From an uncultured Cytophagales bacterium (GTDB lineage Bacteria > Bacteroidota > Bacteroidia > Cytophagales > Bernardetiaceae), in the NCBI GenBank assembly GCA_963719525.1, contig CAVRCG010000004.1:989579-1053578 (forward strand): DNA of 64,000 nt, in the 5' to 3' direction. Of the stretch, positions 10,962 through 55,523 are shown piece after piece. Below the pieces are notes generated by a model that was not told the origin of the DNA, ran no database searches, and saw only the letters and a list, made by a program, of their open reading frames with translations. Numbering within the stretch: the stretch's first letter is position 1; each line of letters begins with the position of its first letter. Both the position numbers and the translations under genes were made by a program.

Positions 10962-10983
10962 ACCAGGAAGTCTGGATTTAGAA

Positions 10984-13674
10984 ATGGGAAGTGCAGCCAA
11001 AACAATTCCTAATCTATTTATTGATAATGCAAGTACAGGAGATGTAGTAAACATAAACACATCAGACTTACAAGCTCCAGCCAATCGTATCACGTTTAGA
11101 GATATTACAGGTGCACAAAATGGTCTTACCTTTAATGTAAATGGTGATGCTCCAAAAACGTATGGAAATATTAGTTTTCCAAATGATATGACGGCACGTT
11201 TTAATGGAACTCAAAATCCTCTGACAAATCCATCAACAACATTACCAGAAACAGACACAAATATTTTTGGAGGAACAGTCAATTTTGGTACAAATACAAG
11301 AGTAACTTGGAATTCGGATAATACCTTCAAAGACGATGTGGAAATAATATCTACTCCTACTAACGTTGATAGAGCAGTAAATTTTGTAAGAAATAATATT
11401 TTTACCGTTGATGCACCACTTACATTTACAGGACCAGGTTGGGCAAGAGTTGGATTTAATGCAGATAATACTTTCACAGAGTTTGGAGCAGCCGTTGCTT
11501 TTAATGGAACACGCAACATTCTTAGATTTGATGGAAATGGTAATACAGAGCTTATTTTCAAAAGCACACTTTTTGTTAATTCGAATGGAGGCGCACAAGC
11601 CGATGTAGATTTTAGATCTCAAGCAACATTTGAAGGTAATGTAGAATTCGGAGAAGCTACAGGAGGAGATGCTACGGCAGAAATGTTTTTTAATAATGGT
11701 ATTTCTATGCCCAACATAAATACAACCTTTACGATGGGAGCAGACTCAAGAATGAGAATACGAGGTGCGCCTGTTAGGTTAAGAGATATGATTATTGGAG
11801 AAAACAATGAGATTACGTTTAATAGTACTGTAGAGATAGATAATATGCAGCTCTCCAAATTTGATGTAATTAACTTTCCTCAAAGTAGTGGAGGTGCAAA
11901 TTCAGGAACTACTACCATTAATGAATACATTACTGCTAGAGAAGATTGTGCAGGTTGGATAAATCTTCGCTCAAATCTAACAGGCGTACAAGCGCAGATA
12001 GATTTTGAAACTGCACATACAACAGTAGGAAACAGAAACTTCCTCTATACTTTCGTTCAAGATATTTGGAACAGAGACTTGGGTGGAAATCCATTGCAAG
12101 TAGTACAAGCAGACCCTGATGTAGTTTCTGATATTGGAAATAATGATGGTATTACATTTATCAATAATGTAGCTTCTCGTACTTTCTACTGGGTAAGAAG
12201 TGATAATGAAAAAGCAAATAATCAAAACAGCACAGGAAATTGGAATGATTTGGATCAAGATAATCACTGGGCAACATCTTCTGGAGGAAATGCAGTAGGT
12301 TGTATTCCAACAGCAAACGATAACGTCGTATTTGATGATAATTCATTTAGTTATACAGAAGCAGGTCAAGAACCAGAAGTAGTTACATTAGATAAGTTCT
12401 TCTCGTATGCCAAAAACATAACTTGGAATGTTACTTCAGATGCAAGTAGAGCCAGATTGATAGGAGATGATGCTAATACATTACAAATATTTGGTTCATT
12501 GTTATTCCAAAACAATATCACAGATGCAGATTGGAACGACTTTGAAGGTCTTACAGAATTTAAAGGTATAGCGACAGCCAACACTACAAAAACCATTGCC
12601 ATGAATGGCGCAAGATTAAATGGTCCTATTCTATTCAATGCACCAAATGATGTCTGGACAATCACAGATAATATGCGTGTAGAAGGAGGAGGAAGAGCAG
12701 ATATTACCTTCAACTATGGAGAAGTAAGAGCAGGAAACAATACCATTTCTTTAGAAGATAATTGGACAATAAACCTTCCTACTGCAGGTTTGAACCAATC
12801 TCTTTTTATAGCTGAAACAAGTACAGTAAACTTTAATGGAAATCAAGACGCACATATAAATATACTTGATCATCAAACAAATGCTAACTGTCTGGAGTGT
12901 TCGGATCAGAGTGCTGCCACTTCCCAGTTAAGAGGGTGTAGTGGAAGTCCTTTTTACAATCTTGTAGTGGATAAGCGTTATAATAGAAGATTAGAACTTC
13001 GTCAGACTATCAATATCTATAATAATCTTAGTATTTTAGTAGGAATTCTTGAAGATGACGGCTGGCAGATACGAGGAAATACAATAGGAACAGTAACGAT
13101 GGCAGATAATACGTGGTTACGTTTAGGAGCAGATGATAATGCAACTGCTTTTCCTACATGTTATCCATCTGCAAACATTACGTTAGGAGATGGTAATCCT
13201 GATGGTCGTATGAATAATTCTCTTAATCCAGATAACGTAACTACAAATCTGAAAGCATCTATTGTAGAATACCGTTGTCCAGATGCTCAACTTGTTCGTG
13301 GAGATATTACGTATGGTACTTTGCGTCTTAGAAGTGACGGAGGAGCAGGAGCAGGTAATCATATAAAACGTTTTACAGATGGAAACACGACTATAAATGG
13401 TAGTTTCATTATAGATGAAAGACAAATCGTTTATGATATGGGGTATCAAATAATAGGAAATAGTTTTAGTGAAGGAAATAGATTTGAGATGCGTGGTAAC
13501 TCTCAACTTATTTTAGGTACAAATCAAACTATAGCTGAACGTACTTACAATATAACTGTACGACCAGGTATTACTATTCCAACACCAGTAGCAGCAGATT
13601 TGGTTACTACGTTTCCTAGCTTTACTAATGGAGTCTACTCCTATGAACGACATCGCAAATGGTGGCAAAATTGA
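10984..13674 (+). CDS. Giant T9SS adhesin, segment 2 of 3 (frame +1 relative to segment 1; frame open from 10927)
   Basis: No signal peptide or ribosome-binding site of its own. The sequence family continues from segment 1 (…LFWVGG…NWN…CIPTANDNVVFDDNS). Confidence 0.65.
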   Translation: MGSAAKTIPNLFIDNASTGDVVNINTSDLQAPANRITFRDITGAQNGLTFNVNGDAPKTYGNISFPNDMTARFNGTQNPLTNPSTTLPETDTNIFGGTVNFGTNTRVTWNSDNTFKDDVEIISTPTNVDRAVNFVRNNIFTVDAPLTFTGPGWARVGFNADNTFTEFGAAVAFNGTRNILRFDGNGNTELIFKSTLFVNSNGGAQADVDFRSQATFEGNVEFGEATGGDATAEMFFNNGISMPNINTTFTMGADSRMRIRGAPVRLRDMIIGENNEITFNSTVEIDNMQLSKFDVINFPQSSGGANSGTTTINEYITAREDCAGWINLRSNLTGVQAQIDFETAHTTVGNRNFLYTFVQDIWNRDLGGNPLQVVQADPDVVSDIGNNDGITFINNVASRTFYWVRSDNEKANNQNSTGNWNDLDQDNHWATSSGGNAVGCIPTANDNVVFDDNSFSYTEAGQEPEVVTLDKFFSYAKNITWNVTSDASRARLIGDDANTLQIFGSLLFQNNITDADWNDFEGLTEFKGIATANTTKTIAMNGARLNGPILFNAPNDVWTITDNMRVEGGGRADITFNYGEVRAGNNTISLEDNWTINLPTAGLNQSLFIAETSTVNFNGNQDAHINILDHQTNANCLECSDQSAATSQLRGCSGSPFYNLVVDKRYNRRLELRQTINIYNNLSILVGILEDDGWQIRGNTIGTVTMADNTWLRLGADDNATAFPTCYPSANITLGDGNPDGRMNNSLNPDNVTTNLKASIVEYRCPDAQLVRGDITYGTLRLRSDGGAGAGNHIKRFTDGNTTINGSFIIDERQIVYDMGYQIIGNSFSEGNRFEMRGNSQLILGTNQTIAERTYNITVRPGITIPTPVAADLVTTFPSFTNGVYSYERHRKWWQN

Positions 13675-16600
13675 ATTGAATGGTGCTTCGACTGTTATTT
13701 ACAACGCAAGTGCGAATCAACAGATAGCCAAAGGTTTTACGTATGGTAGTGTTATTCTACGTGCAACAGGCGCAACAACACCAGTAATAAAAACTATATT
13801 TCCTGTAGTCGTTCTTCCAGTTGTGGCTACTGATGAAATAAGAGTAACTAATCAGCTTATCATTGAAGAGTTTAATTACATGATAGATGCAGGAAATCAG
13901 ATAAAAGCCATAGCAGGTGGAAATCCAAAATTGGAAGCTAAAGAAAACACAAAACTGTTTTTAGGAAATCAAACGATTGCTACTAGATTTCCTACTGTTT
14001 TTGTACGAAATGATATAACGTTGTCTGCTACCAATCCAGTTAGTGCAAATGCTCACGAAACGATTTATATTTCTGATGTAGCACAAACGATGTCTACCGA
14101 ACCAGAGTACGCCAACCTAACGCTTGAAGCACCAAATCTAACGCTTGATGCAATGGTAGAAAAACGTTTTTCAAGTGTTGGAACGCCTAGTAATTTGTCA
14201 GATGCTTATATCCGTGGTAATCTTCTAATAAAAATAAGAAATTATCTATTAGATGACGGTAATCAAATAAGAGGACTAAATGGGCTTACACAGAGTTTTA
14301 CGATGAAGGGTGATGTACCTAATCAAGGACGTAGCTGGATTAGTTTGGGTGAAAACACGTTTGGAGATGTTGCGACTCAGTTCCCTACTTTCTTTGAAAA
14401 CGTTAGTTTAGAAGATTCTACAACGGTAGTTTATAATGCAGGTTCTGTTGTTCAGTCTGTGAGAGGAACAGGATTAAATGTTATGACTGCATTGACAACA
14501 CAATCCTATTATAATCTGATTATACAATCAGGTGTAAAAATAAATGCTATTAAACGTCTGCAAGAACCGATGCGTATTCGTAACGATTTTACAATCCGTA
14601 GATTGAATCGTTTTGAAGACAACAAACAGCAAGTAACAGGTAGTACAATAGGAACAATGAGAATGGAAGAGAGTTCCAATCTATATATTGGTATAAATAC
14701 AGGTGCAGCTCCTAGAAGTGTGTTTCCAACTAATTATAGCAGACCAAGAATTATTTTGAATAATAATGCGACTACACCTTCTACAGTTAGATATTTATCA
14801 AGAGGAACAGGAGCAAACATTCAAAAAGTGTCTAGTGAACCTATTTATAGTAATCTGTTTTTGACTTCTGGAAATACAAGTGCAGGAGCAAATATTGTGA
14901 TGCAAGTTGATCCAAATCCTTTAGTTGTGCCTAGCATACCTAGAACAGAAATCAATGTAACCAGAAATCTAACAGTAGATTATAGAGTTCGTTTTGAAGA
15001 TATGGGTGTTCAGATTGTAGGAAATACTACAAATACATTATTAGTAAATGATGGTTCTGAATTGGTGCTAGGTGTAGAAGATATTTCTACACTATTTCCT
15101 ACTAATTTTGTAGCAGCTAATATCAACCTCAAACCAACGGTAGTAAACAAAACAACAGTTATTTATAATTCTGGTGTAATAGGAAATAATATTTCGGGTT
15201 TGCCAAATTATGGTAATCTTACTCTTAATAATGCAAGAGCAACAGGAACGATTACCAAAAACTTACTTGGAGATATAAATGTATTTGGTAATTTACTGGT
15301 AAGGCAACGAAACGTTCTTGAAACAACTACGAATAATTACAACATAAACTTAAAAGGAAATTGGACAGTAGAAACTAACGGAGTGTTTAATTCTCAAGCA
15401 GGTAGAGTAATTCTTAGTGGTAACTCGGTACAGCAGTTGAGAACTAATTCGGCACAAAACCAAAAGTTTTATGAGTTGGAAGCTAATGCTGGTCTGGTAG
15501 GAAGTTTCCGTATGTTTGATAACGTAATTATAAAAACAGGAGGAAAGACTATTTTTAATAATGGTCTATTTGTTCCTAACGATGTAGGTCTAACAAGTAC
15601 TATCAAGATGGTTTTTGAAGCTAATGCTACTGTAGGTGGGACAGGAACATATACGCCAGCTAGTTGGGTAAATATATCTGCTCCTGCATTATCTGCAAAC
15701 GGACCTAGTAATGTTAGTCACGTAGTAGGAAAGGTAGAAAAGCAAGGTACAGATGCCTTTATGTTCCCTATTGGAAATGGTGTAAATTATGCACCAGCAG
15801 GATTAGGAGTAAGAAACAATTCTACTTATGAAATTCGTTACGTCGGACCTCGTTTTCCTACCACAGACGGTTATGATGTAACTCTGAAAGAACCAACTAT
15901 TTATGGAGTAAGTAATGTAGAATATTGGCGTATAGACCCAATCAATGGAACTACTTCAACTTCTGCACCTGCTTATGTGTATTTGAGTTGGGATAACCCT
16001 CGTAGTGTAGCTTATCAACCAGAAGGATTAAAAGTGTTGAGATGGAATGGTGCTTTATGGACAGACAAATTCTTAGGAGGACATTCTAATGCTTCTGCAA
16101 AAGGAGTTATTGCTAGTCAGAATGTCGTAACTGAGTTTAGTCCATTTACTTTAGGAACTATAAACCAATTCAACCCACTTCCATTGGACTTACTTTCTTT
16201 TGATGCCAAAATAGAAGGTGAATCTGTAAAGGTAAGCTGGGAAACGACTAACGAGATAGACAATTCTCACTTTATGGTTCAGCGTAGCCAAGACGGAAAC
16301 TCGTTTGGTACTTTAGGGCGTGTAAATGCAAAAGGAACAGGATTAGAAGGAACATTTAATTATCAGTTCTGGGATGCAGAGCCGTTTGAAAATCTTTCTT
16401 ATTATCGTTTGAAAATGTTTGACTTGAATGGTGATTTTAAATATTCTCCAATAAGAAGTGTATTATTTGAAAAAGTAGTGAGTGGAGTACAAGGAGAAAT
16501 CAGTTTATATCCAAATCCGAATGGTGGCGCACGTTTCTATCTAAACCTTAATGGAATACTGACTACAGATGCAAAGGTACAAGTTATTGATATGGTAGGT

Positions 16601-16741
16601 AGAACGGTTCATACACAAGATGTACAAAAAGGAGGAGATAATATAATAATTACTCCAAACAGAACGCTACCAGCAGGAACATATATTTTACGTTTCGTTA
16701 CTCCGATTGAAACTATTACTAAGAAGTTTGTAGTAGAATAA
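13628..16741 (+). CDS. Giant T9SS adhesin, segment 3 of 3 (frame +1 again; ends in a T9SS C-terminal sorting domain)
   Basis: Overlaps segment 2 by 47 nt in another frame. The C-terminus (…ISLYPNPNGGARFYLNL…GTYILRFVT…KKFVVE) is a Por/T9SS C-terminal domain. Confidence 0.7.
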   Translation: MESTPMNDIANGGKIELNGASTVIYNASANQQIAKGFTYGSVILRATGATTPVIKTIFPVVVLPVVATDEIRVTNQLIIEEFNYMIDAGNQIKAIAGGNPKLEAKENTKLFLGNQTIATRFPTVFVRNDITLSATNPVSANAHETIYISDVAQTMSTEPEYANLTLEAPNLTLDAMVEKRFSSVGTPSNLSDAYIRGNLLIKIRNYLLDDGNQIRGLNGLTQSFTMKGDVPNQGRSWISLGENTFGDVATQFPTFFENVSLEDSTTVVYNAGSVVQSVRGTGLNVMTALTTQSYYNLIIQSGVKINAIKRLQEPMRIRNDFTIRRLNRFEDNKQQVTGSTIGTMRMEESSNLYIGINTGAAPRSVFPTNYSRPRIILNNNATTPSTVRYLSRGTGANIQKVSSEPIYSNLFLTSGNTSAGANIVMQVDPNPLVVPSIPRTEINVTRNLTVDYRVRFEDMGVQIVGNTTNTLLVNDGSELVLGVEDISTLFPTNFVAANINLKPTVVNKTTVIYNSGVIGNNISGLPNYGNLTLNNARATGTITKNLLGDINVFGNLLVRQRNVLETTTNNYNINLKGNWTVETNGVFNSQAGRVILSGNSVQQLRTNSAQNQKFYELEANAGLVGSFRMFDNVIIKTGGKTIFNNGLFVPNDVGLTSTIKMVFEANATVGGTGTYTPASWVNISAPALSANGPSNVSHVVGKVEKQGTDAFMFPIGNGVNYAPAGLGVRNNSTYEIRYVGPRFPTTDGYDVTLKEPTIYGVSNVEYWRIDPINGTTSTSAPAYVYLSWDNPRSVAYQPEGLKVLRWNGALWTDKFLGGHSNASAKGVIASQNVVTEFSPFTLGTINQFNPLPLDLLSFDAKIEGESVKVSWETTNEIDNSHFMVQRSQDGNSFGTLGRVNAKGTGLEGTFNYQFWDAEPFENLSYYRLKMFDLNGDFKYSPIRSVLFEKVVSGVQGEISLYPNPNGGARFYLNLNGILTTDAKVQVIDMVGRTVHTQDVQKGGDNIIITPNRTLPAGTYILRFVTPIETITKKFVVE

Positions 16742-16938: not shown

Positions 16939-17462
16939 TTACTTCATCACAGGTTCTGCAAAAACACAGGCGTTTACATTTCCAAAACGAAGTGTATCAA
17001 AACTTTGTGCTTTTTTGCGAAGCTCATCAATCGTAATTCTCAATTCTCCAATAAGATCATCATCATTATAAAAACGACCTGTCTTTACGCCCATTTTCTT
17101 ATCGTAATCATAAAACTTAATTGTCAGTTCTACATTTGGTTTTGTATCTGGAATATAAAACGGTTTTACTTTCTTCCATTTTGGTTTGAAGTCATCTTTT
17201 ATAGACTCTGATTCAAAAACTCGGTCTTGCCCAAGCCAAATTTCATAATATACATCTGGTTTATGGTCATACGAAAACATATTTACAGGTGCCAATTGCT
17301 TGAGTTTGAGGGCGATTCGTCAACACTTACAAATGCAGGTCGTATTTGTACGGCATACGTATTTTCTGGCTGCCGAGTACTCTCACAACTAAAAGCCAAA
17401 AAAGAAAACGATAATAAAGTCAGAAACAAATAAAATGAAGAATAGTGTTTTGGTAATTTCAT
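16939..17462 (-). CDS. Hypothetical lipoprotein, apparently frameshifted: a 59-aa ORF carrying a lipoprotein signal peptide (MKLPKHYSSFYLFLTLLSFSFLAFSC, 17283-17462) in a different frame from the 118-aa body ORF 16939-17295
   Basis: The signal-peptide ORF ends 12 nt inside the start of the body ORF. The body has no canonical ATG at its listed start (TTG). The body has weak C2-domain-like character (YDYDKKMGVKTGRFYNDDDLIGELRI). Confidence 0.45.
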
Positions 17463-36252: not shown

Positions 36253-38574
36253 TTACTTCTCCGTCTGAATAAGCATAAAAGCACCCCAATAAAAAGGCTC
36301 TGGATATTCTTTTTTAAGTTTTGCTTGTGCTTTTCTGAAGGCTTCGTTTACATTCGAATTCAAATTATTATTTTCTGTCAGATTTTGGTAAAAATACGTC
36401 ATTAATTTTGCTGTCGCTTCGTCACTCACTTGCCAAAGACTCATAATTGTCGATTTTGCACCTGCCAATTGAAACGCTCTTTGCAGACCATAAACGCCTT
36501 CTCCTGCTTTCACATCGCCCAAACCTGTTTCGCAAGCTGACAAAATTACTAAATCTGTTCCTTCCAAATTTAGTCCTCTTGCTTCGTAGGCTGTCAAAAT
36601 TCCATTATTACTCTCCGTTTTGTCCTTCGAATTTTTGTCTTCTAAAGCTGATTCTGCACCCGTAAGCATCAAACCAGAACGTAAAAGTGGGTTTTGGCGA
36701 ACCAAATTTGCTTGCAAACCAAACGAACGAGCATTCTCTCCAACAGAAATTGCGTGGTCTTCTAAGAAAAAACCGTGTGTAGCAATATGTAAAATACGAG
36801 GATTCTGAATGGCTTTAATGGTTTTCTCATCTGCCGAATTTCCCATAATTACCTCTACTTTTTGCTTATTTTTTTGTAGTAATTTTTGGATTGCTTCTAC
36901 TTCTGTTTTTGTACCAAGAAGTGGATTAATTCTTCCTTTATTTCCATAATTAGGAAAACCTACTAAAACTATTTTATCATTAGCAGAAGAATTAATTTCA
37001 CTTTTTTCTTTTGTCAAATCTTTTAAATTATTCAGAAAAACTAGGTTTTGATGGTCAATTAAATAAGAACCGTCAGAAAGTAGTAATGTATTCAGATTAA
37101 TTTGATTATAAATTCCATCTAAAGAAACAAATATTTTTTCTGTCTTTTCCTTTGCTTTTATAGCTTCCAATTCTTCATAAATCGGTTTCCAATAAGCGTT
37201 AAAACTATCTTCGTCTTCTATTTTTATTTGAATCGTATTTTTATGATACTCAAAATCTCCTTTATCCAATTCTTCACTATTTTTCAAAATTATCATCTTT
37301 GGAGAAGCAAAATTTGGCGTTCCAATCAAAGCGACATAATTTGTTTTACCTAGTTTATCATTTTGATAGTTGGGAAAAGTAATTATATCTACGAAAGCCG
37401 TTTTCTGTGGCAATGCCTTTTTGATGTCTGGATAGGTTTTGAAATCACTTTCTTTGAAAAGTTCTGGCAAACTTGCTGATAGATTTTTTTCAATTTGATT
37501 GGTTTCTTTTTCCAATCCATCTCTATCAATTCCTTGTTCTTTGAGTTCTTCTGGATTGTAGGAATAAAGTTCGATAAGCTGTTCTCTATTACTAATCCAT
37601 TTTTGATAATCGTCTTTCAGTTTTTGATTCGAACCTTTCATAACACTTTCCTTAATTCTGTTTGTAGAGTTTAACAAAATTGCCTTTGTTGCCAAATGTG
37701 AATTGTGCATTTGCGTAACCAAAGAAGGATATTTGTTTGGGTATTTTGTTTCCGTATCGATTACAAAATTATAAAAACGCAAAAAAGTAGGACGGATTTT
37801 GTCCCAATATTTCTCTTTTTCTGTTTCACTCATGGCAGGAAAATAGCTTTTTACAAAGTCGTAATTATGAGCAATTACATTTTCAAACAAGATTTTACTT
37901 TTCTCAATTTCATTCTGTTTCCAATACAAAAGAGCTAATTGTTCTTGTGTTTCGATAGTCTTGACGTGATTTGCTCCCAACTGTTTTGCTCTAATTTCTA
38001 ATGCTGTTTTAAGTTGCTTTTCCGATTCATTTAGCTTTTTCTTATTATCAAACGTTCTATAAAACTGACCTAAATAATTACTCGCAGTTGCATAAGAAAG
38101 ATTATCATCGCCTAACTGTTTCTCATAAATTCGTTGTGCTTCTAAAAGCAAATCCTCTGTTTTCTCATTCTTGCCCATTTCTATATAAAGAGCTGCCAAA
38201 CCAGTTAGCATGTGCGCCAAATCTGGATGGTTTCTTGTTCCAATTCGTTTTTCTTTTAATTTTATACTTTGTAAAAAAAGCTGTTCGGCTTCATCGTAAC
38301 GTTTCATTTGTTGGTACAAAAGAGCCTGATTAATCAGAAAACGCTGATAGGTATTTGATTTTCCCTTTAAAGTAAGAGCTGCAATTTCCATTGCTTGCGA
38401 TAGATATTTTTCTGCTTCTTGATAGCGTCCCAATTCTTGAAACAGAATCGCTTGATTGTTCAGAACGATAGCAGACGAAACCGTTTTATCACTTTTATTT
38501 TTGGCTTGAATTTCTTTTATTTCTACAAACTGCTTTTCAGATTCGGTATAAAGTCCTTTATCTTTCCAAATCAT
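36253..38574 (-). CDS. TPR + CHAT-domain (caspase-like) protease, C-terminal segment; continuous with 38606-39226 after a 1-nt correction
   Basis: TPR repeats. Then the CHAT catalytic region …RILHIATHGFF… and …LVILSACETGLGDVKAGEGVYGLQRAF…. Confidence 0.7.
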   Translation of the reverse strand: MIWKDKGLYTESEKQFVEIKEIQAKNKSDKTVSSAIVLNNQAILFQELGRYQEAEKYLSQAMEIAALTLKGKSNTYQRFLINQALLYQQMKRYDEAEQLFLQSIKLKEKRIGTRNHPDLAHMLTGLAALYIEMGKNEKTEDLLLEAQRIYEKQLGDDNLSYATASNYLGQFYRTFDNKKKLNESEKQLKTALEIRAKQLGANHVKTIETQEQLALLYWKQNEIEKSKILFENVIAHNYDFVKSYFPAMSETEKEKYWDKIRPTFLRFYNFVIDTETKYPNKYPSLVTQMHNSHLATKAILLNSTNRIKESVMKGSNQKLKDDYQKWISNREQLIELYSYNPEELKEQGIDRDGLEKETNQIEKNLSASLPELFKESDFKTYPDIKKALPQKTAFVDIITFPNYQNDKLGKTNYVALIGTPNFASPKMIILKNSEELDKGDFEYHKNTIQIKIEDEDSFNAYWKPIYEELEAIKAKEKTEKIFVSLDGIYNQINLNTLLLSDGSYLIDHQNLVFLNNLKDLTKEKSEINSSANDKIVLVGFPNYGNKGRINPLLGTKTEVEAIQKLLQKNKQKVEVIMGNSADEKTIKAIQNPRILHIATHGFFLEDHAISVGENARSFGLQANLVRQNPLLRSGLMLTGAESALEDKNSKDKTESNNGILTAYEARGLNLEGTDLVILSACETGLGDVKAGEGVYGLQRAFQLAGAKSTIMSLWQVSDEATAKLMTYFYQNLTENNNLNSNVNEAFRKAQAKLKKEYPEPFYWGAFMLIQTEK

Positions 38575-38605: not shown

Positions 38606-39226
38606 TCATTTTTTTCCTTCTGACTTAACTGTAATGCTTGTTGAATATAATTTTCTGCCTTCTTCGATCTGTTTAGTTGTATAATAAAGCAAACCCAAAT
38701 TATTGATAAGTTTTGGATATAATGGATGTGAGGTTTTGTTCAATCGTTTAAATTCTTGTTCTGACTTCAAAAAACTCTGTTCTGCACGTTTGTAAGAACG
38801 AGAAGAATAAGCAATTTCTCCCAAATCATAAAAATCTTTTGCAGCCTGTAAAGGGTCGTTTGAGTTTTGGTCAGTTACTCCAGATTCGTCAGAAAGACGA
38901 ACCAAAAGACGCTTTGTTTTTTGTCCTTTTTGTTTTTCTTCATACAAATCAGTATTGTCTATAAAAGCAATCGCATAACCAAAAGTAGCTGTATCATACG
39001 AAGTTCGAAGTTCTGTAAGTTCTTCATTTACAATGTTTTCAGCTCGTTCTTCTACTTTATCCTCTGCTTCATTGAGTATTTTGTCTTGCAATTTTTCTGC
39101 TTTTTCTTCTGCTTTTTTCTTGATTTTATCCAGCCAACCTTGAGCGTACAGATTGGTAGAAAATAAGATTGAAATTGTGAAAATAAGAGAGAGTACAGAG
39201 AGTTTAAAAAATAATTGATTTTTCAT
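38606..39226 (-). CDS. N-terminal segment of the TPR-CHAT protein (signal peptide + coiled-coil + first TPR); separated from the rest by a frameshift in a T7/A7 homopolymer at 38609-38615
   Basis: Signal peptide MKNQLFFKLSVLSLIFTISILFSTNLYAQG. The ORF ends …SEGKK* inside an A7 run. The next frame reads …ENYTAALNNQAMIWKDKGLY…, continuing the TPR pattern. Confidence 0.65.
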   Translation of the reverse strand: MKNQLFFKLSVLSLIFTISILFSTNLYAQGWLDKIKKKAEEKAEKLQDKILNEAEDKVEERAENIVNEELTELRTSYDTATFGYAIAFIDNTDLYEEKQKGQKTKRLLVRLSDESGVTDQNSNDPLQAAKDFYDLGEIAYSSRSYKRAEQSFLKSEQEFKRLNKTSHPLYPKLINNLGLLYYTTKQIEEGRKLYSTSITVKSEGKK

Positions 39227-47645: not shown

Positions 47646-47674
47646 CCAATACAGAAAATTATTTTTGTATTGGA
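47646..47674. terminator. Bidirectional terminator hairpin shared by sdhB (+) and the Uma2 gene (-)
   Basis: CCAATACAGAAAA…TTTTGTATTGG stem with T-runs on both sides. Confidence 0.55.
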
Positions 47675-48321
47675 TTTTTCTTTTCATCTTTTTCTTCAAA
47701 ATCTACATCTACATAAATATCTTTCAACGAAATTTCTATCTTTTCATCATTTGAAAGGTCTAAAGAAATTTTTTTGTCCAAACCTTCTAATGTTGTAATT
47801 CTCCAAAGTGAAGTATCAGTTATGTTATCATTTTTGGTTGCTTGTAAATCTTCTCTTCTTGAAAAAATTTCTACTAACGGTTTTTCTTGACTTATCAAAA
47901 CATAATGACGAAGTGAAGAAAGCTGCCTGTAAGCATAAAACTTATCTCCTCTATCATATCCTTCTGTAGATTTTGATAAAACTTCAATGATAATAACTGG
48001 ATTTGTAATAGAATCTTTATGATTTTTTCCCAATTCAAACTCGCCACAAACTACCATACAATCAGGGTAAACATATCTATTTTCTTTTTTTATCCATAAT
48101 TTCATTTGACTATTTATAGCTTTGAACTTCTTACCTTTGAGTAAAACTCCTATTTCTCCAAATATATTTCCTCCTATCAAACTATGTGGAATCGTTCCTC
48201 CAGACATAGCATATACATAACCATCGTGATATTCATATTTTTGCTCGTTTTGTTCTTCCAATTTTAGATATTCTTCTAACGTTAGTTTTTCGTTCAACTC
48301 ATAATTCGGCTGTGCTCTCAT
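47659..48321 (-). CDS. Uma2-family (DUF820) PD-(D/E)xK-type endonuclease
   Basis: Pattern …EYHDGYVYAMSGG…H…PD…IIEVLS… is typical of Uma2/DUF820 proteins. Family recalled from memory. Confidence 0.65.
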   Translation of the reverse strand: MRAQPNYELNEKLTLEEYLKLEEQNEQKYEYHDGYVYAMSGGTIPHSLIGGNIFGEIGVLLKGKKFKAINSQMKLWIKKENRYVYPDCMVVCGEFELGKNHKDSITNPVIIIEVLSKSTEGYDRGDKFYAYRQLSSLRHYVLISQEKPLVEIFSRREDLQATKNDNITDTSLWRITTLEGLDKKISLDLSNDEKIEISLKDIYVDVDFEEKDEKKNPIQK

Positions 48322-48509: not shown

Positions 48510-49514
48510 TTACTTGCCAAATTTGTTTTGAAGAGCAGCTAATTTGTCAGCCATTGTTCCACCTGTTTCTGGTGCTTCTTCTTTTGGTTTTGATTTCTCT
48601 TTTTCTTGTTTTTGAATAAATGAATCTGCCTTTTTGTAAGATGATTTTCTAGCCTTACGCTCTTTTGGCTTATTTGTATCATCTTCTAAAGAACTTCCTC
48701 TACTAAATTTAGAATCATTCTTTCTATCTTTACCCATTTCCGAAATGGCTTCTTTTTCTACTTTCGTAATCGGTTTTCTGGTTGCAACTCTTTGTGGTTG
48801 TTGCGCTCTAGCTTCTGAAAGAGTAGTATTTGTTCCTCCTCTTTTTACATCTGAATCTGCACCAAAAGGTTCAGACTTTAGACTTAATGAAATTCTTTTT
48901 CTAGCCAAATCAACTTCCATAACAGTTGCTTCTACTTTCTGATGAACTTTTACGGCATCGGTTGGGTGCTTAATAAAATTATCTGAAAGCTGACTAATAT
49001 GAGCTAATCCGTCTTGATGAACTCCTACATCTATAAAAGCACCAAAATCTGTAATATTGGTTACAATGCCTGAAAGTTTCATTCCGACTGTCAAGTCTTC
49101 CATTTTTTCTACGCCTTCTACAAAAGAGAAAGCCTCAAACTGCTCACGAGGATCACGCCCCGGTTTGGCAAGCTCGGAAACAATATCTTCAAGGGTTGGA
49201 AGTCCGACCGTATCGGTAACATAATCTTTCGGATTAATCTGCTTGCGTAATTCTTCGTTTTTGATAAGATCATCAACGGTTGTGTTTAAGTCTTTAGCCA
49301 TTTTTTCTACTATTGGATAACTTTCTGGGTGAACTGCACTAGAATCTAATAAATTTTTGGCATCACGAATACGTAAAAATCCTGCTGCCTGTTCAAAAGC
49401 CTTATCGCCTAAACGAGGAACTTTTTTGAGTTGCGCTCTACTTTTAAAAGCACCTTTTTCATTTCTAAACTCTACAATATTTTTGGCAAGAGAAGGTCTC
49501 CAAACCAGAAACAT
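48510..49514 (-). CDS. tex: Transcription accessory protein Tex, C-terminal segment (HhH + S1 domain + Lys-rich tail)
   Basis: S1 domain EDLTVGMKLSGIVTNITDFGAFIDVGVHQDGLAHISQLSD. The segment begins …LAKNIVEFRNEKGAFKSRAQLKKVPRLG, which in Tex follows …LLSYVSGLG. Confidence 0.8.
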   Translation of the reverse strand: MFLVWRPSLAKNIVEFRNEKGAFKSRAQLKKVPRLGDKAFEQAAGFLRIRDAKNLLDSSAVHPESYPIVEKMAKDLNTTVDDLIKNEELRKQINPKDYVTDTVGLPTLEDIVSELAKPGRDPREQFEAFSFVEGVEKMEDLTVGMKLSGIVTNITDFGAFIDVGVHQDGLAHISQLSDNFIKHPTDAVKVHQKVEATVMEVDLARKRISLSLKSEPFGADSDVKRGGTNTTLSEARAQQPQRVATRKPITKVEKEAISEMGKDRKNDSKFSRGSSLEDDTNKPKERKARKSSYKKADSFIQKQEKEKSKPKEEAPETGGTMADKLAALQNKFGK

Positions 49515-51078
49515 AACTCAATAATTCTTTACTTGCCGTATTTACCTCCACACCAACAGCATTTACACAACTCATAACCGTATCATCAAGACTATTTTTG
49601 AGTTGTTTTTGATCAACATCGTGCTGATACTGACCTACACCGATAGATTTTGGATCTAATTTTACAAGTTCTGCTAACGGGTCCATTAAACGACGACCAA
49701 TTGAAACTGCACCACGAACTGTCAAATCATAATCTGCAAATTCTTCACGAGCAACAGCAGAAGCCGAATAAATAGATGCACCACTTTCACTTACCACTAC
49801 AATCTGAATTGTTTTTGGTAATCCTTTAATGGCTTTTATAAAACGCTCTGTTTCTCTGCTTGCCGTTCCGTTTCCGATTGCAATCGCTTCAATAGCATAT
49901 TTTTCACACAGAGCTAAGATTATATTTCCTGCTTTTTCGGTATCTTTTTGAGGTTCGTTTGGATAAATAGTATCATTATAAACGAGTTTTCCTTGTTTGT
50001 CCAAAACGACTAATTTACAACCTGTTCTGAATCCAGGATCTAGAGCTAATGTATTTTTTTGTCCTAACGGTGCAGATAATAAAAGTTGTCTAAGATTTTC
50101 TGCAAAAATAGAAATGGCTTCTTCGTCGGCTTTTTGTTTTGAAAGCATACGAATTTCTGTTTCCATTGATGGTTTCAAAAGTCTTTTATAGGCATCTTTT
50201 ACAGCTAATTGTACCTGTTCTGAAGATTTTGTATTGCTATGAACAAAATTATCTTCCAATAAAGTAATTGCTCGGTGTTCATTGGGTTGCAAATCTAAAA
50301 GCAAGATTCCTTCTTTTTCTGCTCTGCGAAGTGCCAAAACACGGTGCGAAGGAGCTTCAATTAATGGTTCTGACCATTCAAAATAATCTCTATATTTTTC
50401 GCCTTCTTTTTCTTTTCCAGTAATTACACGAGCCGAAATGGTACCTTCTTTCTCAAAAACGGAACGCATTTTTGCACGAGTTTCTGCGTGTTCGTTGATA
50501 TGCTCGGCAATAATATCTCTTGCACCTGCTAATGCTTCTTCAAGTGTTTTTACTCCTTTTTCTTCATCGATAAATTGCTTTGCTGTTTTCTCTAAATCCA
50601 TTCTTCCCTGTTCCAAAATCTGTAACGCTAAAGGCTCTAATCCTTTTTCTTTTGCCATCGAAGCACGAGTTTTGCGTTTTTGTTTGTAAGGCAAATACAA
50701 ATCTTCCAAAGCAGAGAGAGTCTGGACAGCATTAATTTTCTCTTCTAATTCTGGAGTAAGTTTTTCTTGTTCCGAAATAGATTTCAAAATTGCTTCACGT
50801 CTTTTATCTAATTCACGAAGCTGAACGAGCCTATCTCTAACAGTCGCTACCTGTACCTCATCAAGCGTACCCGTAACTTCTTTACGATAGCGAGAAATAA
50901 AAGGAACAGTTGCCCCTTCATCTAAAAGCTGTGCCGTTGCTTCTACTTGTTTGACACGCACACCAATTTCGGCAGCGATTTGAACGATATGTTGAGCATC
51001 TAAAAGAGCCTGATCCATAGTTTTGTCTTGATTCTTTTCGTAGGAAAAATGAAAATAGTTTGCTAATTGTAGAAGCAA
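49465..51078 (-). CDS. tex: Transcription accessory protein Tex, N-terminal segment (HTH / YqgF-like / HhH); overlaps the C-terminal segment by 50 nt in another frame (frameshift)
   Basis: …FISRYRKEVTG…, the YqgF-like region and …VNTASKELLSYVSGL. The ORF then ends with the non-native ETFSCQKYCRV*. Confidence 0.8.
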   Translation of the reverse strand: MLLQLANYFHFSYEKNQDKTMDQALLDAQHIVQIAAEIGVRVKQVEATAQLLDEGATVPFISRYRKEVTGTLDEVQVATVRDRLVQLRELDKRREAILKSISEQEKLTPELEEKINAVQTLSALEDLYLPYKQKRKTRASMAKEKGLEPLALQILEQGRMDLEKTAKQFIDEEKGVKTLEEALAGARDIIAEHINEHAETRAKMRSVFEKEGTISARVITGKEKEGEKYRDYFEWSEPLIEAPSHRVLALRRAEKEGILLLDLQPNEHRAITLLEDNFVHSNTKSSEQVQLAVKDAYKRLLKPSMETEIRMLSKQKADEEAISIFAENLRQLLLSAPLGQKNTLALDPGFRTGCKLVVLDKQGKLVYNDTIYPNEPQKDTEKAGNIILALCEKYAIEAIAIGNGTASRETERFIKAIKGLPKTIQIVVVSESGASIYSASAVAREEFADYDLTVRGAVSIGRRLMDPLAELVKLDPKSIGVGQYQHDVDQKQLKNSLDDTVMSCVNAVGVEVNTASKELLSYVSGLETFSCQKYCRV

Positions 51079-51112: not shown

Positions 51113-51510
51113 GTGAAAAATACTAGGGGCGAGGGAATAGGGGCGAGGGTCGTGGGAATTACTGGGTCGTGAAAAATACTAGGGGCGAGGGAATAGGGGC
51201 GAGGGTCGTGGAAATTACTGGGGGCGAGGGAATAGGGTTGAGGGTCGTGGGAATTACTGGGTCGTGGAAATTACTGGGGGCGAGGGAATTGGGGCGAGAG
51301 TCGTGGGAATTACTGGGTCGTGGAAATTACTGGGGGCGAGGGAATAGGGTTGAGGGTCGTGGGAATAAGGAATAATAAAAAAATGACTTTTCACACGCCC
51401 CTCGCCCCAATTCACACGCTCCAACTTTCATTTCACACGCCCCTCGCCCCAATTCCCACGCTCCAACTTTCATTTCACACGCCCCTCGCCCCAATTCACA
51501 CGCCCCTAAC
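51113..51510. repeat. GC-rich tandem repeat arrays: 51113-51378 (~56-bp unit GAAAAATACTAGGGGCGAGGGAATAGGGGCGAGGGTCGTGGGAATTACTGGGTCGT, about 4.5 copies) then the reverse-complement family 51380-51510 (~42-bp unit TTTCACACGCCCCTCGCCCCAATTCACACGCTCCAACTTTCA, about 3 copies)
   Basis: Directly repeated GC-rich units in an AT-rich genome. The two halves are mutual reverse complements (GGGGCGAGGG vs CCCTCGCCCC). The ORF-track ORFs 51169-51375 and 51320-51535 are only translations of these repeats. Confidence 0.8.
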
Positions 51511-51868
51511 TTCTAGCCTTCAAAGACCTTATTAATCCTCCCATTAGATTTCCCACCTTTTGAGCTTGTTGCAACATATCGTTTTGTTGATTCAAATTTA
51601 TATATTCCAATCGACAGGCTATCATTATTTGCGTTTCTAATTCTCCTAAAGAACCTCTTGCTATTGATAAAAATTGCAAGAATTGTGCAGTTGTATGACG
51701 CTGATGTCCTTCTGCTATATTCGATGGAACTGAAACGGCTGCTCTTCTCATTTGGCTAGTCAGTCCATAAACTTCTTCTCTTGGAAATGCCTTTGTTTTC
51801 TTATAAATATCAGTTACTAAGTCCATTGCTTCTTTCCACACATTTAAGTCTTTATACGATTTTATCAT
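51506..51868 (-). CDS. Four-helix-bundle protein (23S rRNA intervening-sequence type, TIGR02436-like)
   Basis: Strong match to the family pattern …KAFPREEVYGLTSQMRRAAVSVPSNIAEG…FLSIARGSLGELETQIMIA… Flanked on both sides by GC-rich repeats. Confidence 0.8.
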   Translation of the reverse strand: MIKSYKDLNVWKEAMDLVTDIYKKTKAFPREEVYGLTSQMRRAAVSVPSNIAEGHQRHTTAQFLQFLSIARGSLGELETQIMIACRLEYINLNQQNDMLQQAQKVGNLMGGLIRSLKARS

Positions 51869-51942
51869 TTTTGATTTTTATTAAATTAATTTTAATACAA
51901 ACAAAAGAAAAGAAATAATAATGATGAAGATAACAAAAAATT

Positions 51943-52100
51943 CCCTAATCTCTCGCCCCTCACTCATTCATTCTCGCCCCTCGCCCCTAATCTCTCGCCC
52001 CCTCACTCATTCATTCTCGCCTTTCGCCCCTAATCCCTCGCCCCCTCACTCATTCATTCTCGCCTTTCGCCCCTAATCCCTCGCCCCCTCATTCCCCTAA
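51943..52100. repeat. GC-rich tandem repeat array (~49-bp unit CCTAATCYCTCGCCCCCTCACTCATTCATTCTCGCCYYTCGCC, about 3 copies), same CCCTCGCCCC family; overlaps the 3' end of the RM gene
   Basis: Direct repeats. The last 15-18 codons of ORF 52054-55032 (…RGMRGRGIRGERRE*) are encoded by these repeats. Confidence 0.8.
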
Positions 52101-55100
52101 TAATTTCCATCGTTTCCACACTTACCGTACAAACACGCTGCAAAAGCTCAATTACCTCTTCTTTATAATCTTCAAATTTGTAGGTATTAAATTTTTCTCT
52201 AATCGTTTCATCTCGTGGCTTCTTTTCTTTGTACTGATCCAAAATCCACTCTAAAGCAGAACGATTTCCCAATTTATACTCCCACGCAGCAGCAGGAATG
52301 TTTTTTAATGTCGTTTGCTGGTCTAAAATAATTTCTCCTTTTTCTTTGTCGGCTTTTAGTTTGGCTTTATTCAAACTACTGCTTTTCAAAACATTTTCCT
52401 CACGCTGCAAATCATATTTTTCTATGGTTTCATAATCCAAATGAAGAGCCATTAATTCTTTTCCTTTTGCAGACCAAAAACCAAAATCTTCATAAAATGG
52501 AATGCGTGGAAATTCCCTTTTTAGATTCAATTCATACTTTTCACGGTACACAGGATTGTGCAGAACGCCATACACATAATGAAAAATGTCTTCACGATTG
52601 ATTTTTTTATCGTTATAGTTTTCTCTAAATTCATTTACTGCCCATTGTGTGATATTGTCTATGCGTTTGCCTTCTTTTGTGTAACGGTAAAGGGGAAGGG
52701 TTTGAGCATAATCGGCACTATACATAGCATAATTAACTACCATATTAGACACGAAGCAAGAAAAGTCTAATCTACCTCCTTGAGAAAAACCAATAATTTT
52801 GTTTTCATCGGAAAATATTTGTGGCATTTGATACTGCATTTCATTCAATTCTTTCGCAAAATAAATTATCTTTTTACAAAATGGTCTATATAAACTAGTA
52901 ACAATATTTAATTTATCATATTCATATTTTCGTCCTTTACTCAAATCATTTTTTACTGCTCTTGACCACTTTATCGAATAATCTACTTGATTTCTAATTT
53001 CATCTTTCGTTTTTCCTTGTAATTTATCAACATCTTTATTGTAAGCATTAATTAAAAAATTAACTTTATTTTCTAAATTATTCTTATCAAAATCACAAAC
53101 CCATTCATCTCTAGCTGTAACAACTCCTAAAGAATATAATCTAAAAATAGCTTTCTCATCTTTTCCTGCTTTCGTTTCTTTACTACAAACAGGCATTAAT
53201 TCCTCAAAATCATTATCAGCCAAATTAATCCAATTATTCTTTTTACTTGGTTGAATAAGTTTAAATTCTAATGTTTCAATTTTATTTTCACTCAAATAGC
53301 TCTTTTTTCTTTCAGCTTTTGCATAATCTTCAATAGCATTGTAATATATTTTACAACCCTTTCTATTCTCATTTCTAATAAAAAAATAAATAGCTACTCC
53401 TACTCTAATTTGGTCATTAAATACATTTCCACCTTCTTTTTTACGTTGCTCACCAGCAGTTCTAGCATTTCCTTTTAAATCAATAACCCATATTTCATTA
53501 AAATCTTTAGCTACTGTTTTTCTAAAACCATCAAAAGTACGACTATTTATAAAAGAACTATTTGATACAAAAGCAAGAATACCATTTGTATCAAGTCTAT
53601 CAGTTGCCCATCTCAAAAATCTAGTGTACATGTCATACAATTTCGTCTTCTGTGCCGTACTTTCCTTTATATAGGTATCTTTTATTCGCTTATCAATTTC
53701 TGGATATTCTCTATTTTTATTATTATCATTTTCGTTTTGTTGATTGGCATTATAAGGAGGATTTCCAATAATAACCGATATTTTACGCTTGTTTTGTCTT
53801 TGAATACGCTCCAAATTTTCAGCCGACAGGCTCGTAAAAAGTCCTGTTTGTTTTCCTGTAAAACCAAAACCCATATTATCTAATGTATCGACAAAAACTA
53901 GATTTTCGAATTCCTTATACTCGCCTGTTTTTTGTTGATAAGCATATTCAATATTCAGATTGGCAATATAATAAGGTAAAATACTGACTTCGTTGGCGTG
54001 AATTTCATTGAGGTATTTGTGTCTAATCTGTTCTATTTTTTGTTTGGGAAAATAATCTATCAAATCAGTAATAAACGTTCCTGTTCCTGTTGCTGGGTCT
54101 AATATTTCTACTCCTTCACTCAAAAGTTCTTTTCCAAAATGTTCGTACAAAAGATAATCTGTACTTTCAATCATAAAACGTACAATTTCGTTGGGCGTAT
54201 AGACAATTCCTAAACGGTCAGCACCTTTTGGATTGTAGGCTTTGTAAAAATCTTCATAAATTACCTTCAAAAAAGTCTGTTTTTCTCTTACGTCATCTAT
54301 TCGTGCAGCCACCGTTTTGATGACTTGGTAATAATTACGGATTTTTGGATAAAAATTTCGCTTCGTTTCTTTTCTAAAAAAGGTTTTCAAAACGTTTTCC
54401 AATTCAAAAGCAATATTATTCGACTTATGAAAATCAGCTTCATCAAAAATAGTAGTGAAAATATCTTCTGTCAGAATGTGCTGCACAAGCATTTCACGAA
54501 TATCATTTGGCGTAATATCTGGATTAATACTATCCTGACAAATTTTTAAAAACTTGGTTTTTGCTGCCACAAATTCCTTGTTTTGTTTGGCTTCTTCGTC
54601 CATCAAAGTGCGTAATTCCTTGATAATGGGAGGAATATCGGTTTTGAAATCTTCTAAGGCTTGTCTGAACTCGGTATATTCAGGTCTTTCAAAACTGACA
54701 AACTGCTGCAAAAGGGAATACAAATCTAGTCCGTCGTCTTGCATCGGTGCAGTAGCGACACGCTTTCCATTTTGATATAAAATGGCTTGCTGTGTATCTT
54801 CAAAAATAATATTATCGTTGGGATAACCTTTGGCAAATTTCTTTTTTATCTCGTCTTCAATATCATCGGCTTCATCTTTTGATTCCCAATATCCCCAATC
54901 CAAACGGTTTACACCTTTCACAATTCCGTCTGGACGAATCGTTTTTCCTTGCGAATTTTTGATACTAATTTCTTCTACCAAAACGAGGTTTTTGGTCTGA
55001 CAGAATATCGTAAAGCAGGTTTGAAAAAGCACGTTTTACAGCCATTTCATTTTTTGCTCCTACTTGGTGGAGTTCAGAGAGTTTTCTTTGAAAATTATGG

Positions 55101-55117
55101 ACAAGATGGATAGACAT
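52054..55117 (-). CDS. Type IIG (MmeI/Eco57I-like) restriction-modification enzyme: N-terminal PD-(D/E)xK nuclease + N6-adenine methyltransferase (motif I LDPATGTGTF, motif IV NPPY) + C-terminal target-recognition domain; apparent frameshift near the N-terminus
   Basis: RPDG…GYWESKD nuclease motif, DPATGTGTF, VIIGNPPY and the C-terminal …FHYVYGVLHNPVYREKYELNLKREFPRIPF… block. The likely true start is ATG 55117 (MSIHLVHNFQRKLSEL…, a 50-aa ORF), which joins the main frame near an A5/T5 run at about 54989-55007. Confidence 0.65.
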
Positions 55118-55523
55118 ATTCAGTTTTCAGTAAGTAGTTACCAGTAATCAGTAAATGAGTGAATGTTGTTTTTGATTTTTAGATATTTTACAAATCTTAC
55201 AAATCTTACAAATATAGATAAATTGTTTACTTATTTTTGTTTTCTTTGAAACCAAAATTTATGATTTCTATGTATCTTTGATAAACGACTTATTAGAACT
55301 AAATGAATAGATTATGAATATTACTTCATTAGACCAACTAGATTTTAACAAAACCTATTCAGAAAAATGTATTAAATTTATCTACTGGAAAATATGAAGT
55401 AGAAGGATTTTATGGAATTGATAATATGATTTCTGCGACTGTTTTATCAGGTTTTGAAGTAGAAGTGAATAGAGTTTTTAGGTAAAAAGGTAAGTCAATA
55501 TAAGTGACACTTCTGTATAAAAA

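What the first reader, a model, noticed from the sequence alone, without database searches (positions are those of the whole stretch)
52054..55117. Type IIG restriction-modification enzyme with a probable frameshifted N-terminus, within a small defence-like neighbourhood
The roughly 1,020-aa product has three parts: a PD-(D/E)xK nuclease N-domain (RPDG…GYWESKD), a gamma-class N6-adenine methyltransferase (DPATGTGTF, NPPY), and a C-terminal target-recognition block (…LHNPVYREKYELNLKREFPRIPF…). This is the MmeI-like single-polypeptide architecture. The authentic start appears to be ATG 55117, which opens a 50-aa ORF; that ORF joins the main frame near an A5/T5 tract at about 54989-55007. Neighbours are the repeat-flanked four-helix-bundle gene, a Uma2-family nuclease (47659-48321) and a frameshifted tex. 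The enzyme may be inactive, or a phase-variable RM system.
Basis: partly seen in the sequence, partly recalled or inferred. Interest (0 to 1): 0.5.

Follow-up and report, generated by a model that had tools for sequence, protein, structure and literature searches.

The report
Frameshifted DrdV-type restriction-modification gene
This is an ordinary single-protein restriction-modification gene, a close relative of the solved enzyme DrdV, whose start is cut off by one extra base; four more such one-base breaks lie in the same 64 kb, so the break is more likely an assembly error than biology.

Summary
With one base removed, window 52054-55117 (minus strand) encodes a 1020-aa protein. It aligns end to end with DrdV (PDB 7LO5, 1029 aa, Type IIL; E=0, 1164 bits). 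The nuclease active-site residues, methyltransferase motifs I and IV, the ISP coupler domain and the Type_ISP_C recognition domain are all present.

ATG 55117 is the true start. The break is one extra base in GAT-ATTC-TGT at 55003-55006. It is not at the A5 or T5 tract, and the nearest relative (86% aa, intact, 1063 aa) reads GAT-GTC-TGT there. The cut-off part carries the active-site glutamate E24 and the helices that pair two nuclease domains in DrdV.

Phase variation is not supported: there is no slippery tract, and all 120 listed relatives are full length. The "defence neighbourhood" is weak. RM-tex-Uma2 is a conserved chromosomal order and tex is a housekeeping-type gene.

The window holds five one-extra-base frameshifts in four otherwise intact genes: this RM gene, tex, a TPR-CHAT gene, and a giant T9SS adhesin hit twice. 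I therefore read the break as most likely an assembly insertion error (about 0.6). A very recent real inactivation is the main rival (about 0.33). The family is known and large, so interest is low.

The parts
55004..55117 (-). Authentic first 38 codons (MSIHLVHNFQRKLSELHQVGAKNEMAVKRAFSNLLYDI). They lie inside the 50-aa ORF 54965-55117 and include E24 (55046-55048), the equivalent of DrdV E25.
   Evidence: They align position for position with DrdV 1-38 and with relative P0001 residues 1-38.
55003..55006 (-). Frameshift site: four bases (ATTC) where one codon is expected, i.e. one extra base. The relative has GTC here.
52054..55032 (-). Main ORF as called in public records (992 aa, GTG start, protein P0123). 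The homologous coding part runs 52102-55002.
54667..55117 (-). PD-ExK endonuclease domain (repaired residues 1-150). Active-site residues are D63 (54928-54930), E78 (54883-54885), K80 (54877-54879) and K93 (54838-54840).
   Evidence: These correspond to DrdV D64, E79, K81 and K94.
54292..54654 (-). Helical connector (Pfam ISP_coupler, residues 155-275).
53152..54267 (-). Gamma-class N6-adenine methyltransferase domain (residues 284-655). Motif I DPATGTGTF is at 54073-54099 and motif IV NPPY at 53752-53763.
52144..53151 (-). Target-recognition domain (Pfam Type_ISP_C, residues 656-991).
   Evidence: E=6.6e-98.
52054..52101 (-). Non-native C-terminal tail (IRGMRGRGIRGERRE plus the stop codon), encoded by a copy of the GC-rich repeat. 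Homology to the relative ends at 52102.
51113..52095 (.). GC-rich repeat arrays (core GGGGCGAGGG; 16 of the 17 matches in the window) bracketing the four-helix-bundle gene 51506-51868.
48510..51078 (-). tex gene split into two ORFs by one extra base at 49495-49506. The relative encodes an intact 821-aa Tex.
47659..48321 (-). Uma2-family gene, intact. It occupies the same position in the relative.

Best explanation
The locus encodes a DrdV-type Type IIL (a subclass of Type IIG) restriction-modification enzyme: one chain of about 1005 native residues with an N-terminal PD-ExK nuclease, a helical connector, a gamma-class m6A methyltransferase and a C-terminal recognition domain.

How it should work, inferred from DrdV: the monomer binds an asymmetric target through the recognition and methyltransferase domains. 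It flips one adenine and slowly methylates one strand, which protects the host. When several target-bound monomers meet on unmodified DNA, their nuclease domains swap and pair, and they cut both strands at a fixed distance downstream.

In this record one extra base at 55003-55006 separates codons 1-38 from the rest. I judge that this break is most likely an insertion error in the assembly consensus, and that the organism carries an intact, working gene. The break is not phase variation.
For: Identity (shown):
- The repaired protein aligns end to end with 7lo5_A (E=0, 1164 bits), and 7LO5 is DrdV.
- The DrdV active-site residues D64, E79, K81, K94 and E25 are all conserved here as D63, E78, K80, K93 and E24.
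- Motifs I and IV and all four domain models are present.
- There is no ATPase segment: LlaGI and LlaBIII align only from their residues 548 and 713.

Frameshift (shown):
- It is one extra base relative to the intact relative.
- It is the only frame-breaking indel in about 3 kb of coding sequence.
- dN/dS against the relative is 0.11, and 0.145 in the nuclease domain.

Artefact reading (inferred):
- Five frameshifts lie in 64 kb: this RM gene, tex, a TPR-CHAT gene, and the T9SS adhesin twice.
- All five are of the one-extra-base type, and each is the only frame break I found in an otherwise open reading frame. I noticed no premature stop codon or one-base deletion, but I did not screen the window for them.
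- The hits fall on the longer genes, as random errors would.
- The source is a single 3.80-Mb contig.
- An independently built Logan contig is identical to the window for 1523 bases and stops 4-7 nt before the site.
Against: - The extra bases are not in homopolymers, which is where most long-read consensus errors fall. Runs of 7 to 9 A or T are present in the window, and the genes I examined there show no frame break, so the assembly is not generally poor.
- RM genes are often really inactivated, and a break at the start of the nuclease domain is the non-lethal way to do it.
- The locus has undergone real rearrangement: repeats replace the native 3' end.
- I could not retrieve the source record or any reads, so the artefact reading rests on the pattern alone.
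- The target sequence and the activity are untested.
Confidence: 0.6

Rival explanations
1. The frameshift is real and recent: a one-base insertion has switched off restriction in this strain. No full-length enzyme is made. At most, a product starting at GTG 55032 would lack helix 1, E24 and part of the nuclease-pairing surface. It would be nuclease-dead but might still methylate, acting as an orphan-like methyltransferase. The other four frameshifts would then reflect ongoing gene decay or an insertion-prone mutator in this lineage.
For: - The break is not at a homopolymer, and long homopolymers elsewhere are in frame.
- The cut-off segment holds the equivalents of DrdV E25 and of the interface residues K8, R12, D15 and E41. 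The lesion therefore removes restriction specifically and leaves the MTase and TRD reading frame open for 992 codons.
- Repeat invasion of the 3' end shows that the locus is in flux.
- The genome is a 3.80-Mb contig, against a 4.92-Mb contig for Bernardetia litoralis. This is compatible with genome reduction.
Against: - All five events are of the same +1 type. I saw no deletion and no nonsense mutation. With equal odds of gain and loss, five of five has p of about 0.03, and it is less likely still given the deletion bias of bacteria (established knowledge).
- Each broken gene carries no other lesion, and dN/dS is 0.11, so any inactivation would have to be very recent in four genes at once.
- tex is intact in the sister species.
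Confidence: 0.33
2. The gene is switched on and off on purpose. Either slippage at a repeat tract varies the phase, or a programmed +1 ribosomal frameshift restores the full-length enzyme.
For: - Single-chain RM enzymes are phase-variable in some pathogens (general knowledge).
- A Logan contig ends just upstream of the site, which could reflect mixed alleles in the reads.
Against: - The site is ATTC, with at most two identical bases. The A5 and T5 tracts are each read in a single frame.
- A5 runs are commonplace: 435 runs of five in the window and 32 in the gene region 52054-55200.
- No simple-sequence repeat of at least four units lies in the gene.
- None of the 120 listed homologues, nor the 86%-identical relative seen on 24 contigs, shares a break, so no recoding signal is conserved.
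- AUU-C is not a known +1 slippery context (inference).
Confidence: 0.04

Closest known systems
DrdV (Type IIL RM enzyme; PDB 7LO5/7LVV; recognises CATGNAC)
   Same: - Same length class (1020 aa repaired against 1029 aa) and the same four-part order.
- End-to-end sequence alignment.
- All five nuclease active-site residues, motif I and NPPY are conserved.
- No ATPase domain.
   Different: - The target sequence is unknown, and the recognition domain is diverged.
- Several DrdV nuclease-interface residues differ here (K8 is N, R12 is K, D15 is E in the alignment).
- The last 15 residues come from a repeat element.
- The reading frame is broken after codon 38 in this record.
LlaGI / LlaBIII (Type ISP RM enzymes; PDB 5FFJ, 4XQK)
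   Same: The coupler, methyltransferase and recognition domains are homologous (E=2.7e-141 and 4.1e-126; Pfam ISP_coupler and Type_ISP_C).
   Different: The Type ISP enzymes carry a RecA-like ATPase motor and cut after translocation and collision. Here only about 150 residues precede the coupler, and the alignment to LlaGI and LlaBIII starts at their residues 548 and 713. The database names 'type ISP' and 'predicted helicase' given to relatives are therefore misleading.
MmeI (Type IIL RM enzyme)
   Same: The same single-chain architecture (nuclease, gamma-class MTase, TRD). According to the DrdV paper, MmeI likewise needs several target sites for cutting.
   Different: It is a different sequence family. 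No MmeI Pfam model reached E 0.001, and no MmeI chain reached E 0.01 in the PDB search.

Membership tests
DrdV-type Type IIL (Type IIG) RM enzymes | One polypeptide with the order nuclease, helical connector, MTase, TRD, and full-length similarity to DrdV | tested here: met
   residues 1-1009 against 1-1024, E=0; domain models; PDLC03621, E=1.7e-301.
DrdV-type Type IIL (Type IIG) RM enzymes | PD-ExK nuclease active site (DrdV D64, E79, K81, K94, E25) | tested here: met
   D63, E78, K80, K93 and E24 are present in the repaired protein. E24 lies in the cut-off ORF.
DrdV-type Type IIL (Type IIG) RM enzymes | Gamma-class m6A MTase: motif I lies before motif IV (NPPY), and the TRD is C-terminal | tested here: met
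   DPATGTGTF at residue 340, NPPY at 452, Type_ISP_C at 656-991.
DrdV-type Type IIL (Type IIG) RM enzymes | An uninterrupted reading frame giving one chain | tested here: not met
   In this record one extra base at 55003-55006 splits the gene. Whether this is true of the organism cannot be decided here.
DrdV-type Type IIL (Type IIG) RM enzymes | Methylation of one strand and cutting at a fixed distance from an asymmetric site | not testable with these tools
   Needs a methylome analysis and enzyme assays.
Type ISP RM enzymes (LlaGI/LlaBIII) | A RecA-like ATPase/translocase domain between the nuclease and the coupler | tested here: not met
   No helicase model in Pfam. The alignment to LlaGI and LlaBIII begins after their motor domains.
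MmeI family | Sequence match to MmeI domain models or to the MmeI structure | tested here: not met
   No MmeI model at E<=0.001. No MmeI chain at E<=0.01.
Phase-variable RM gene | A simple-sequence or long homopolymer tract at the frame break | tested here: not met
   The break is in ATTC. The longest run at the site is 2. No repeat of at least four units lies in the gene.
Defence island | Several adjacent genes matching defence-system models, in a variable context | tested here: not met
   Only the RM gene and Uma2 (candidate PDC-S03) match. RM-x-tex-Uma2 is conserved in a sister species. The flanks are sdhAB and OmpH.

The most novel reading that the evidence does not exclude
The five one-base insertions are real. 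Under this reading, a Bernardetia-like lineage is undergoing a burst of +1 frameshift mutations. It has just lost restriction while keeping a 992-codon open frame for the methyltransferase and recognition domains. Translated from GTG 55032, that frame would give a natural nuclease-dead DrdV that survives as an orphan, possibly regulatory, adenine methyltransferase.
Probability: 0.1. Interest if true: 0.35.

Novelty: new member of a known kind. Interest (0 to 1): 0.1.

Why it matters
The finding matters little on its own. The family has thousands of full-length members and a solved, mechanistically dissected representative.

It has three practical uses:
- Annotation: relatives are mislabelled 'type ISP' or 'predicted helicase'.
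- Quality control: this 3.8-Mb record appears to carry about one extra-base frameshift per 13 kb, so 'pseudogenes' in it should not be interpreted before the reads are checked.
- Enzyme discovery: the repaired gene is a candidate Type IIL enzyme with a possibly new specificity.

Tried and rejected
- Locating the source record or an independent copy of the site. Exact-protein look-ups of the 992-aa ORF, the 50-aa ORF and the four-helix-bundle gene found nothing on record. Look-ups of Uma2 and OmpH returned only short Logan contigs, and one of these stops at 55010.
- A pattern scan of JGI metagenomes for either allele found nothing.
- The one genome-contig scan found no genome closer than 64% identity.
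- A lineage-specific rate test with L088 as outgroup failed, because L088 is closer to the relative than to the window. It therefore says nothing about relaxed selection on the window branch.
- NCBIfam has no model for this enzyme.
- The 38 upstream residues alone reach only E=0.27 against the PDB. DrdV 1-38 is the single hit, and the case rests instead on the close relatives.
- I looked for a shared sequence motif at the five frameshift sites. Two adhesin sites share ATGAAC and one matches DrdV's CATGNAC. I rejected this as a coincidence because the other three sites share nothing.
- I considered programmed +1 frameshifting and rejected it, because no relative conserves a break.
- I did not run structure prediction, because a closely related (1164-bit) solved structure exists.

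Full report
**What is in the sequence.** On the minus strand there is a 992-codon ORF (52054-55032, GTG start). Just upstream, one base out of frame, is a 50-codon ORF that opens at ATG 55117. Removing one base at the junction gives a 1020-aa protein.

Pfam finds four models in it: ISP_coupler (residues 155-275), N6_Mtase, Eco57I and Type_ISP_C (656-991, E=6.6e-98). PADLOC scores the main ORF as a Type IIG restriction enzyme-methyltransferase (PDLC03621, E=1.7e-301).

Against all PDB sequences, the repaired protein aligns from residue 1 to 1009 with residues 1-1024 of 7lo5_A (1029 aa; E=0, 1164 bits). It aligns with LlaGI and LlaBIII only from their residues 548 and 713 onward. A 2025 paper cites PDB 7LO5 as DrdV.

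**Where the break is.** Relatives fix it more exactly.
- The nearest relative, P0001 (86% aa identity, 1063 aa), reads ...AFSNLLYDVCQTKNLILVEE....
- The window reads AFSNLLYDI in the upstream frame and CQTKNLVLVEE in the main frame.
- At the DNA level the window has TAC GAT ATTC TGT CAG where the relative has TAT GAT GTC TGT CAG.

The lesion is therefore one extra base within 55003-55006. The T5 run (55024-55028) is read wholly in the upstream frame, and the A5 run (54989-54993) wholly in the main frame. Across the 2.5-kb block that covers most of the gene, this is the only net frame-breaking indel against the relative.

**What the break removes.** The DrdV paper (bioRxiv 10.1101/2021.01.06.425610) describes the following.
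- The metal at the scissile phosphate is held by D64 and E79.
- K94 and E25 complete the active site, and K81 is the essential lysine.
- K8, R12, D15, E41 and R46 form the contact between two nuclease domains that is needed for a double-strand cut.

The window keeps D63, E78, K80, K93 and E24. However, E24 and the first helices lie in the cut-off 38 codons. The main ORF alone aligns with DrdV only from residue 32. If the break is real, any product would lack a working nuclease. The methyltransferase (DPATGTGTF at residue 340, NPPY at 452) and the recognition domain would stay in an open frame.

**How it should work (inferred from DrdV).** A monomer binds an asymmetric site. It flips one adenine into the methyltransferase pocket and methylates one strand slowly. 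When several site-bound monomers come together, they swap nuclease domains and pair them, and then cut both strands at a fixed distance downstream. Because single sites are methylated and clustered unmodified sites are cut, the enzyme tells host DNA from foreign DNA. The target sequence of this enzyme cannot be read from the sequence.

**Family placement.** The enzyme has the architecture of MmeI but is not in that sequence family: no MmeI model or chain was hit. It lacks the ATPase motor of the Type ISP enzymes, although public records name relatives "type ISP restriction/modification enzyme" or "predicted helicase". The DrdV authors themselves note that DrdV shares its MTase and TRD with LlaGI and LlaBIII.

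**Context.** SdhA clusters at 90% identity or more with Bernardetia litoralis, and the source is a 3,796,523-bp contig held by NCBI and ENA. Several proteins carry T9SS sorting domains.
- A sister species, seen on 24 metagenome contigs, has an intact 1063-aa RM gene followed by a Y1_Tnp-like gene, an intact 821-aa tex and Uma2. The order RM-x-tex-Uma2 is therefore conserved, and only the middle gene and the upstream flank differ.
- In the window the middle gene is a four-helix-bundle protein (PF05635, TIGR02436). It is bracketed by GC-rich repeats found almost nowhere else in the window: 16 of 17 matches to GGGGCGAGGG lie in 51126-52087, against 0.19 expected.
- One repeat copy supplies the last 15 codons and the stop of the RM ORF. 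Homology to the relative ends at 52102.
- Only the RM gene and Uma2 (candidate PDC-S03) match defence models. The flanks are sdhAB and an OmpH-like gene. I do not regard this as a defence island.

**Is the frameshift biology?** dN/dS between the repaired gene and the relative is 0.11 (dS 0.50) and 0.145 in the nuclease domain. The gene was therefore under purifying selection for nearly all of the divergence.

The decisive observation is that the window contains four more breaks of the same kind.
- tex has one extra base at 49495-49506, where the relative reads GGTTTGG-GAGC.
- A TPR-CHAT gene is split at 38650-38665. A complete TPR repeat is recognised only when one G is removed.
- The three ORFs 5235-10961, 10984-13674 and 13628-16741 step through frames 0, 1 and 2. 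Only the first has a signal peptide, by eye. Only the last has the T9SS sorting domain.
- Homologues span those two junctions in one frame. P0145 (55% identity) spans the first, and P0146 and P0148 (29% identity) span both.

This makes five events in 64 kb. All are of the one-extra-base type, each is the only frame break found in its otherwise open frame, and they fall on the longer genes. I noticed no nonsense mutation or one-base deletion, although I did not screen for them.

That pattern fits insertion errors in a long-read consensus better than natural decay. An independently assembled Logan contig from run ERR12040027 is identical to the window for 1523 bases and ends at 55010, 4-7 nt before the site. 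This is suggestive of disagreement among reads but is not proof.

Against the artefact reading, none of the sites is a homopolymer, and runs of 7-9 A or T elsewhere do not coincide with any frame break I found. RM genes are also commonly inactivated in nature.

I put the artefact reading at about 0.6 and a real recent inactivation at about 0.33. Deliberate switching (phase variation or programmed frameshifting) gets about 0.04, because there is no slippery tract and no relative shares a break.

**Verdict.** The mechanism proposed for the break (the A5/T5 tract, phase variation) and the "defence neighbourhood" framing are not supported. This is a new, uncharacterised member of a well-known kind, probably intact in the organism. 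Interest is low. Checking the reads at five named positions would settle the open question.

Noticed in passing
window 49495-49506, 38650-38665, 10953-10964, 13639-13651: Four further one-extra-base frameshifts: in tex, in a TPR-CHAT gene (38606-39226 plus 36253-38574 form one 990-aa protein), and twice in a T9SS adhesin of about 3835 aa (5235-16741). None is at a homopolymer. This suggests either about one insertion error per 13 kb in the record or a genome-wide process.
   Followed up: yes
window 51113-51514 and 51939-52095: A GC-rich repeat family (core GGGGCGAGGG, with units of about 42, 43 and 56 nt, in both orientations) occurs in a 34% GC window. It brackets the 23S-rRNA-IVP / TIGR02436 four-helix-bundle gene (51506-51868) and overwrites the 3' end of the RM gene. 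It is absent from the sister species' locus. It may be a mobile cassette.
   Followed up: partly
L083 12505-12675 (relative's RM gene) and L083 13355-14023: The sister species' intact RM gene carries an in-frame, palindromic, REP-like insertion of about 183 nt (61 aa, with SVDSHRR and HDG.SVRE repeated) in its recognition domain. It sits next to a Y1_Tnp (RAYT-like) gene. The allele is present on 24 metagenome contigs.
   Followed up: partly
L089 (Logan contig, run ERR12040027) = window 56532-55010: An independently assembled contig is 100% identical to the window and terminates 4-7 nt upstream of the RM frameshift. This could mark read disagreement at the site or could be chance.
   Followed up: partly
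window 55180-55240: Upstream of ATG 55117 there are direct repeats (TTTGTAAGATTTGTAAGATTTGTAAAAT). There is also a TATATTTG element matching the Bacteroidota -7 promoter consensus TAnnTTTG, which I recall from the literature and did not test.
   Followed up: no
window 16939-17295 (-): A 118-aa ORF with a C2-domain hit (E=3.7e-09), which is unusual for a bacterium. It has a TTG start and could be a fragment.
   Followed up: no
L088 213-2015 (GCA_020049755.1): A third relative (P0125, 600 aa) shares the nuclease, coupler and MTase part at about 87% identity. It diverges completely after the MTase domain and ends early, which suggests that the recognition module was swapped or lost.
   Followed up: no
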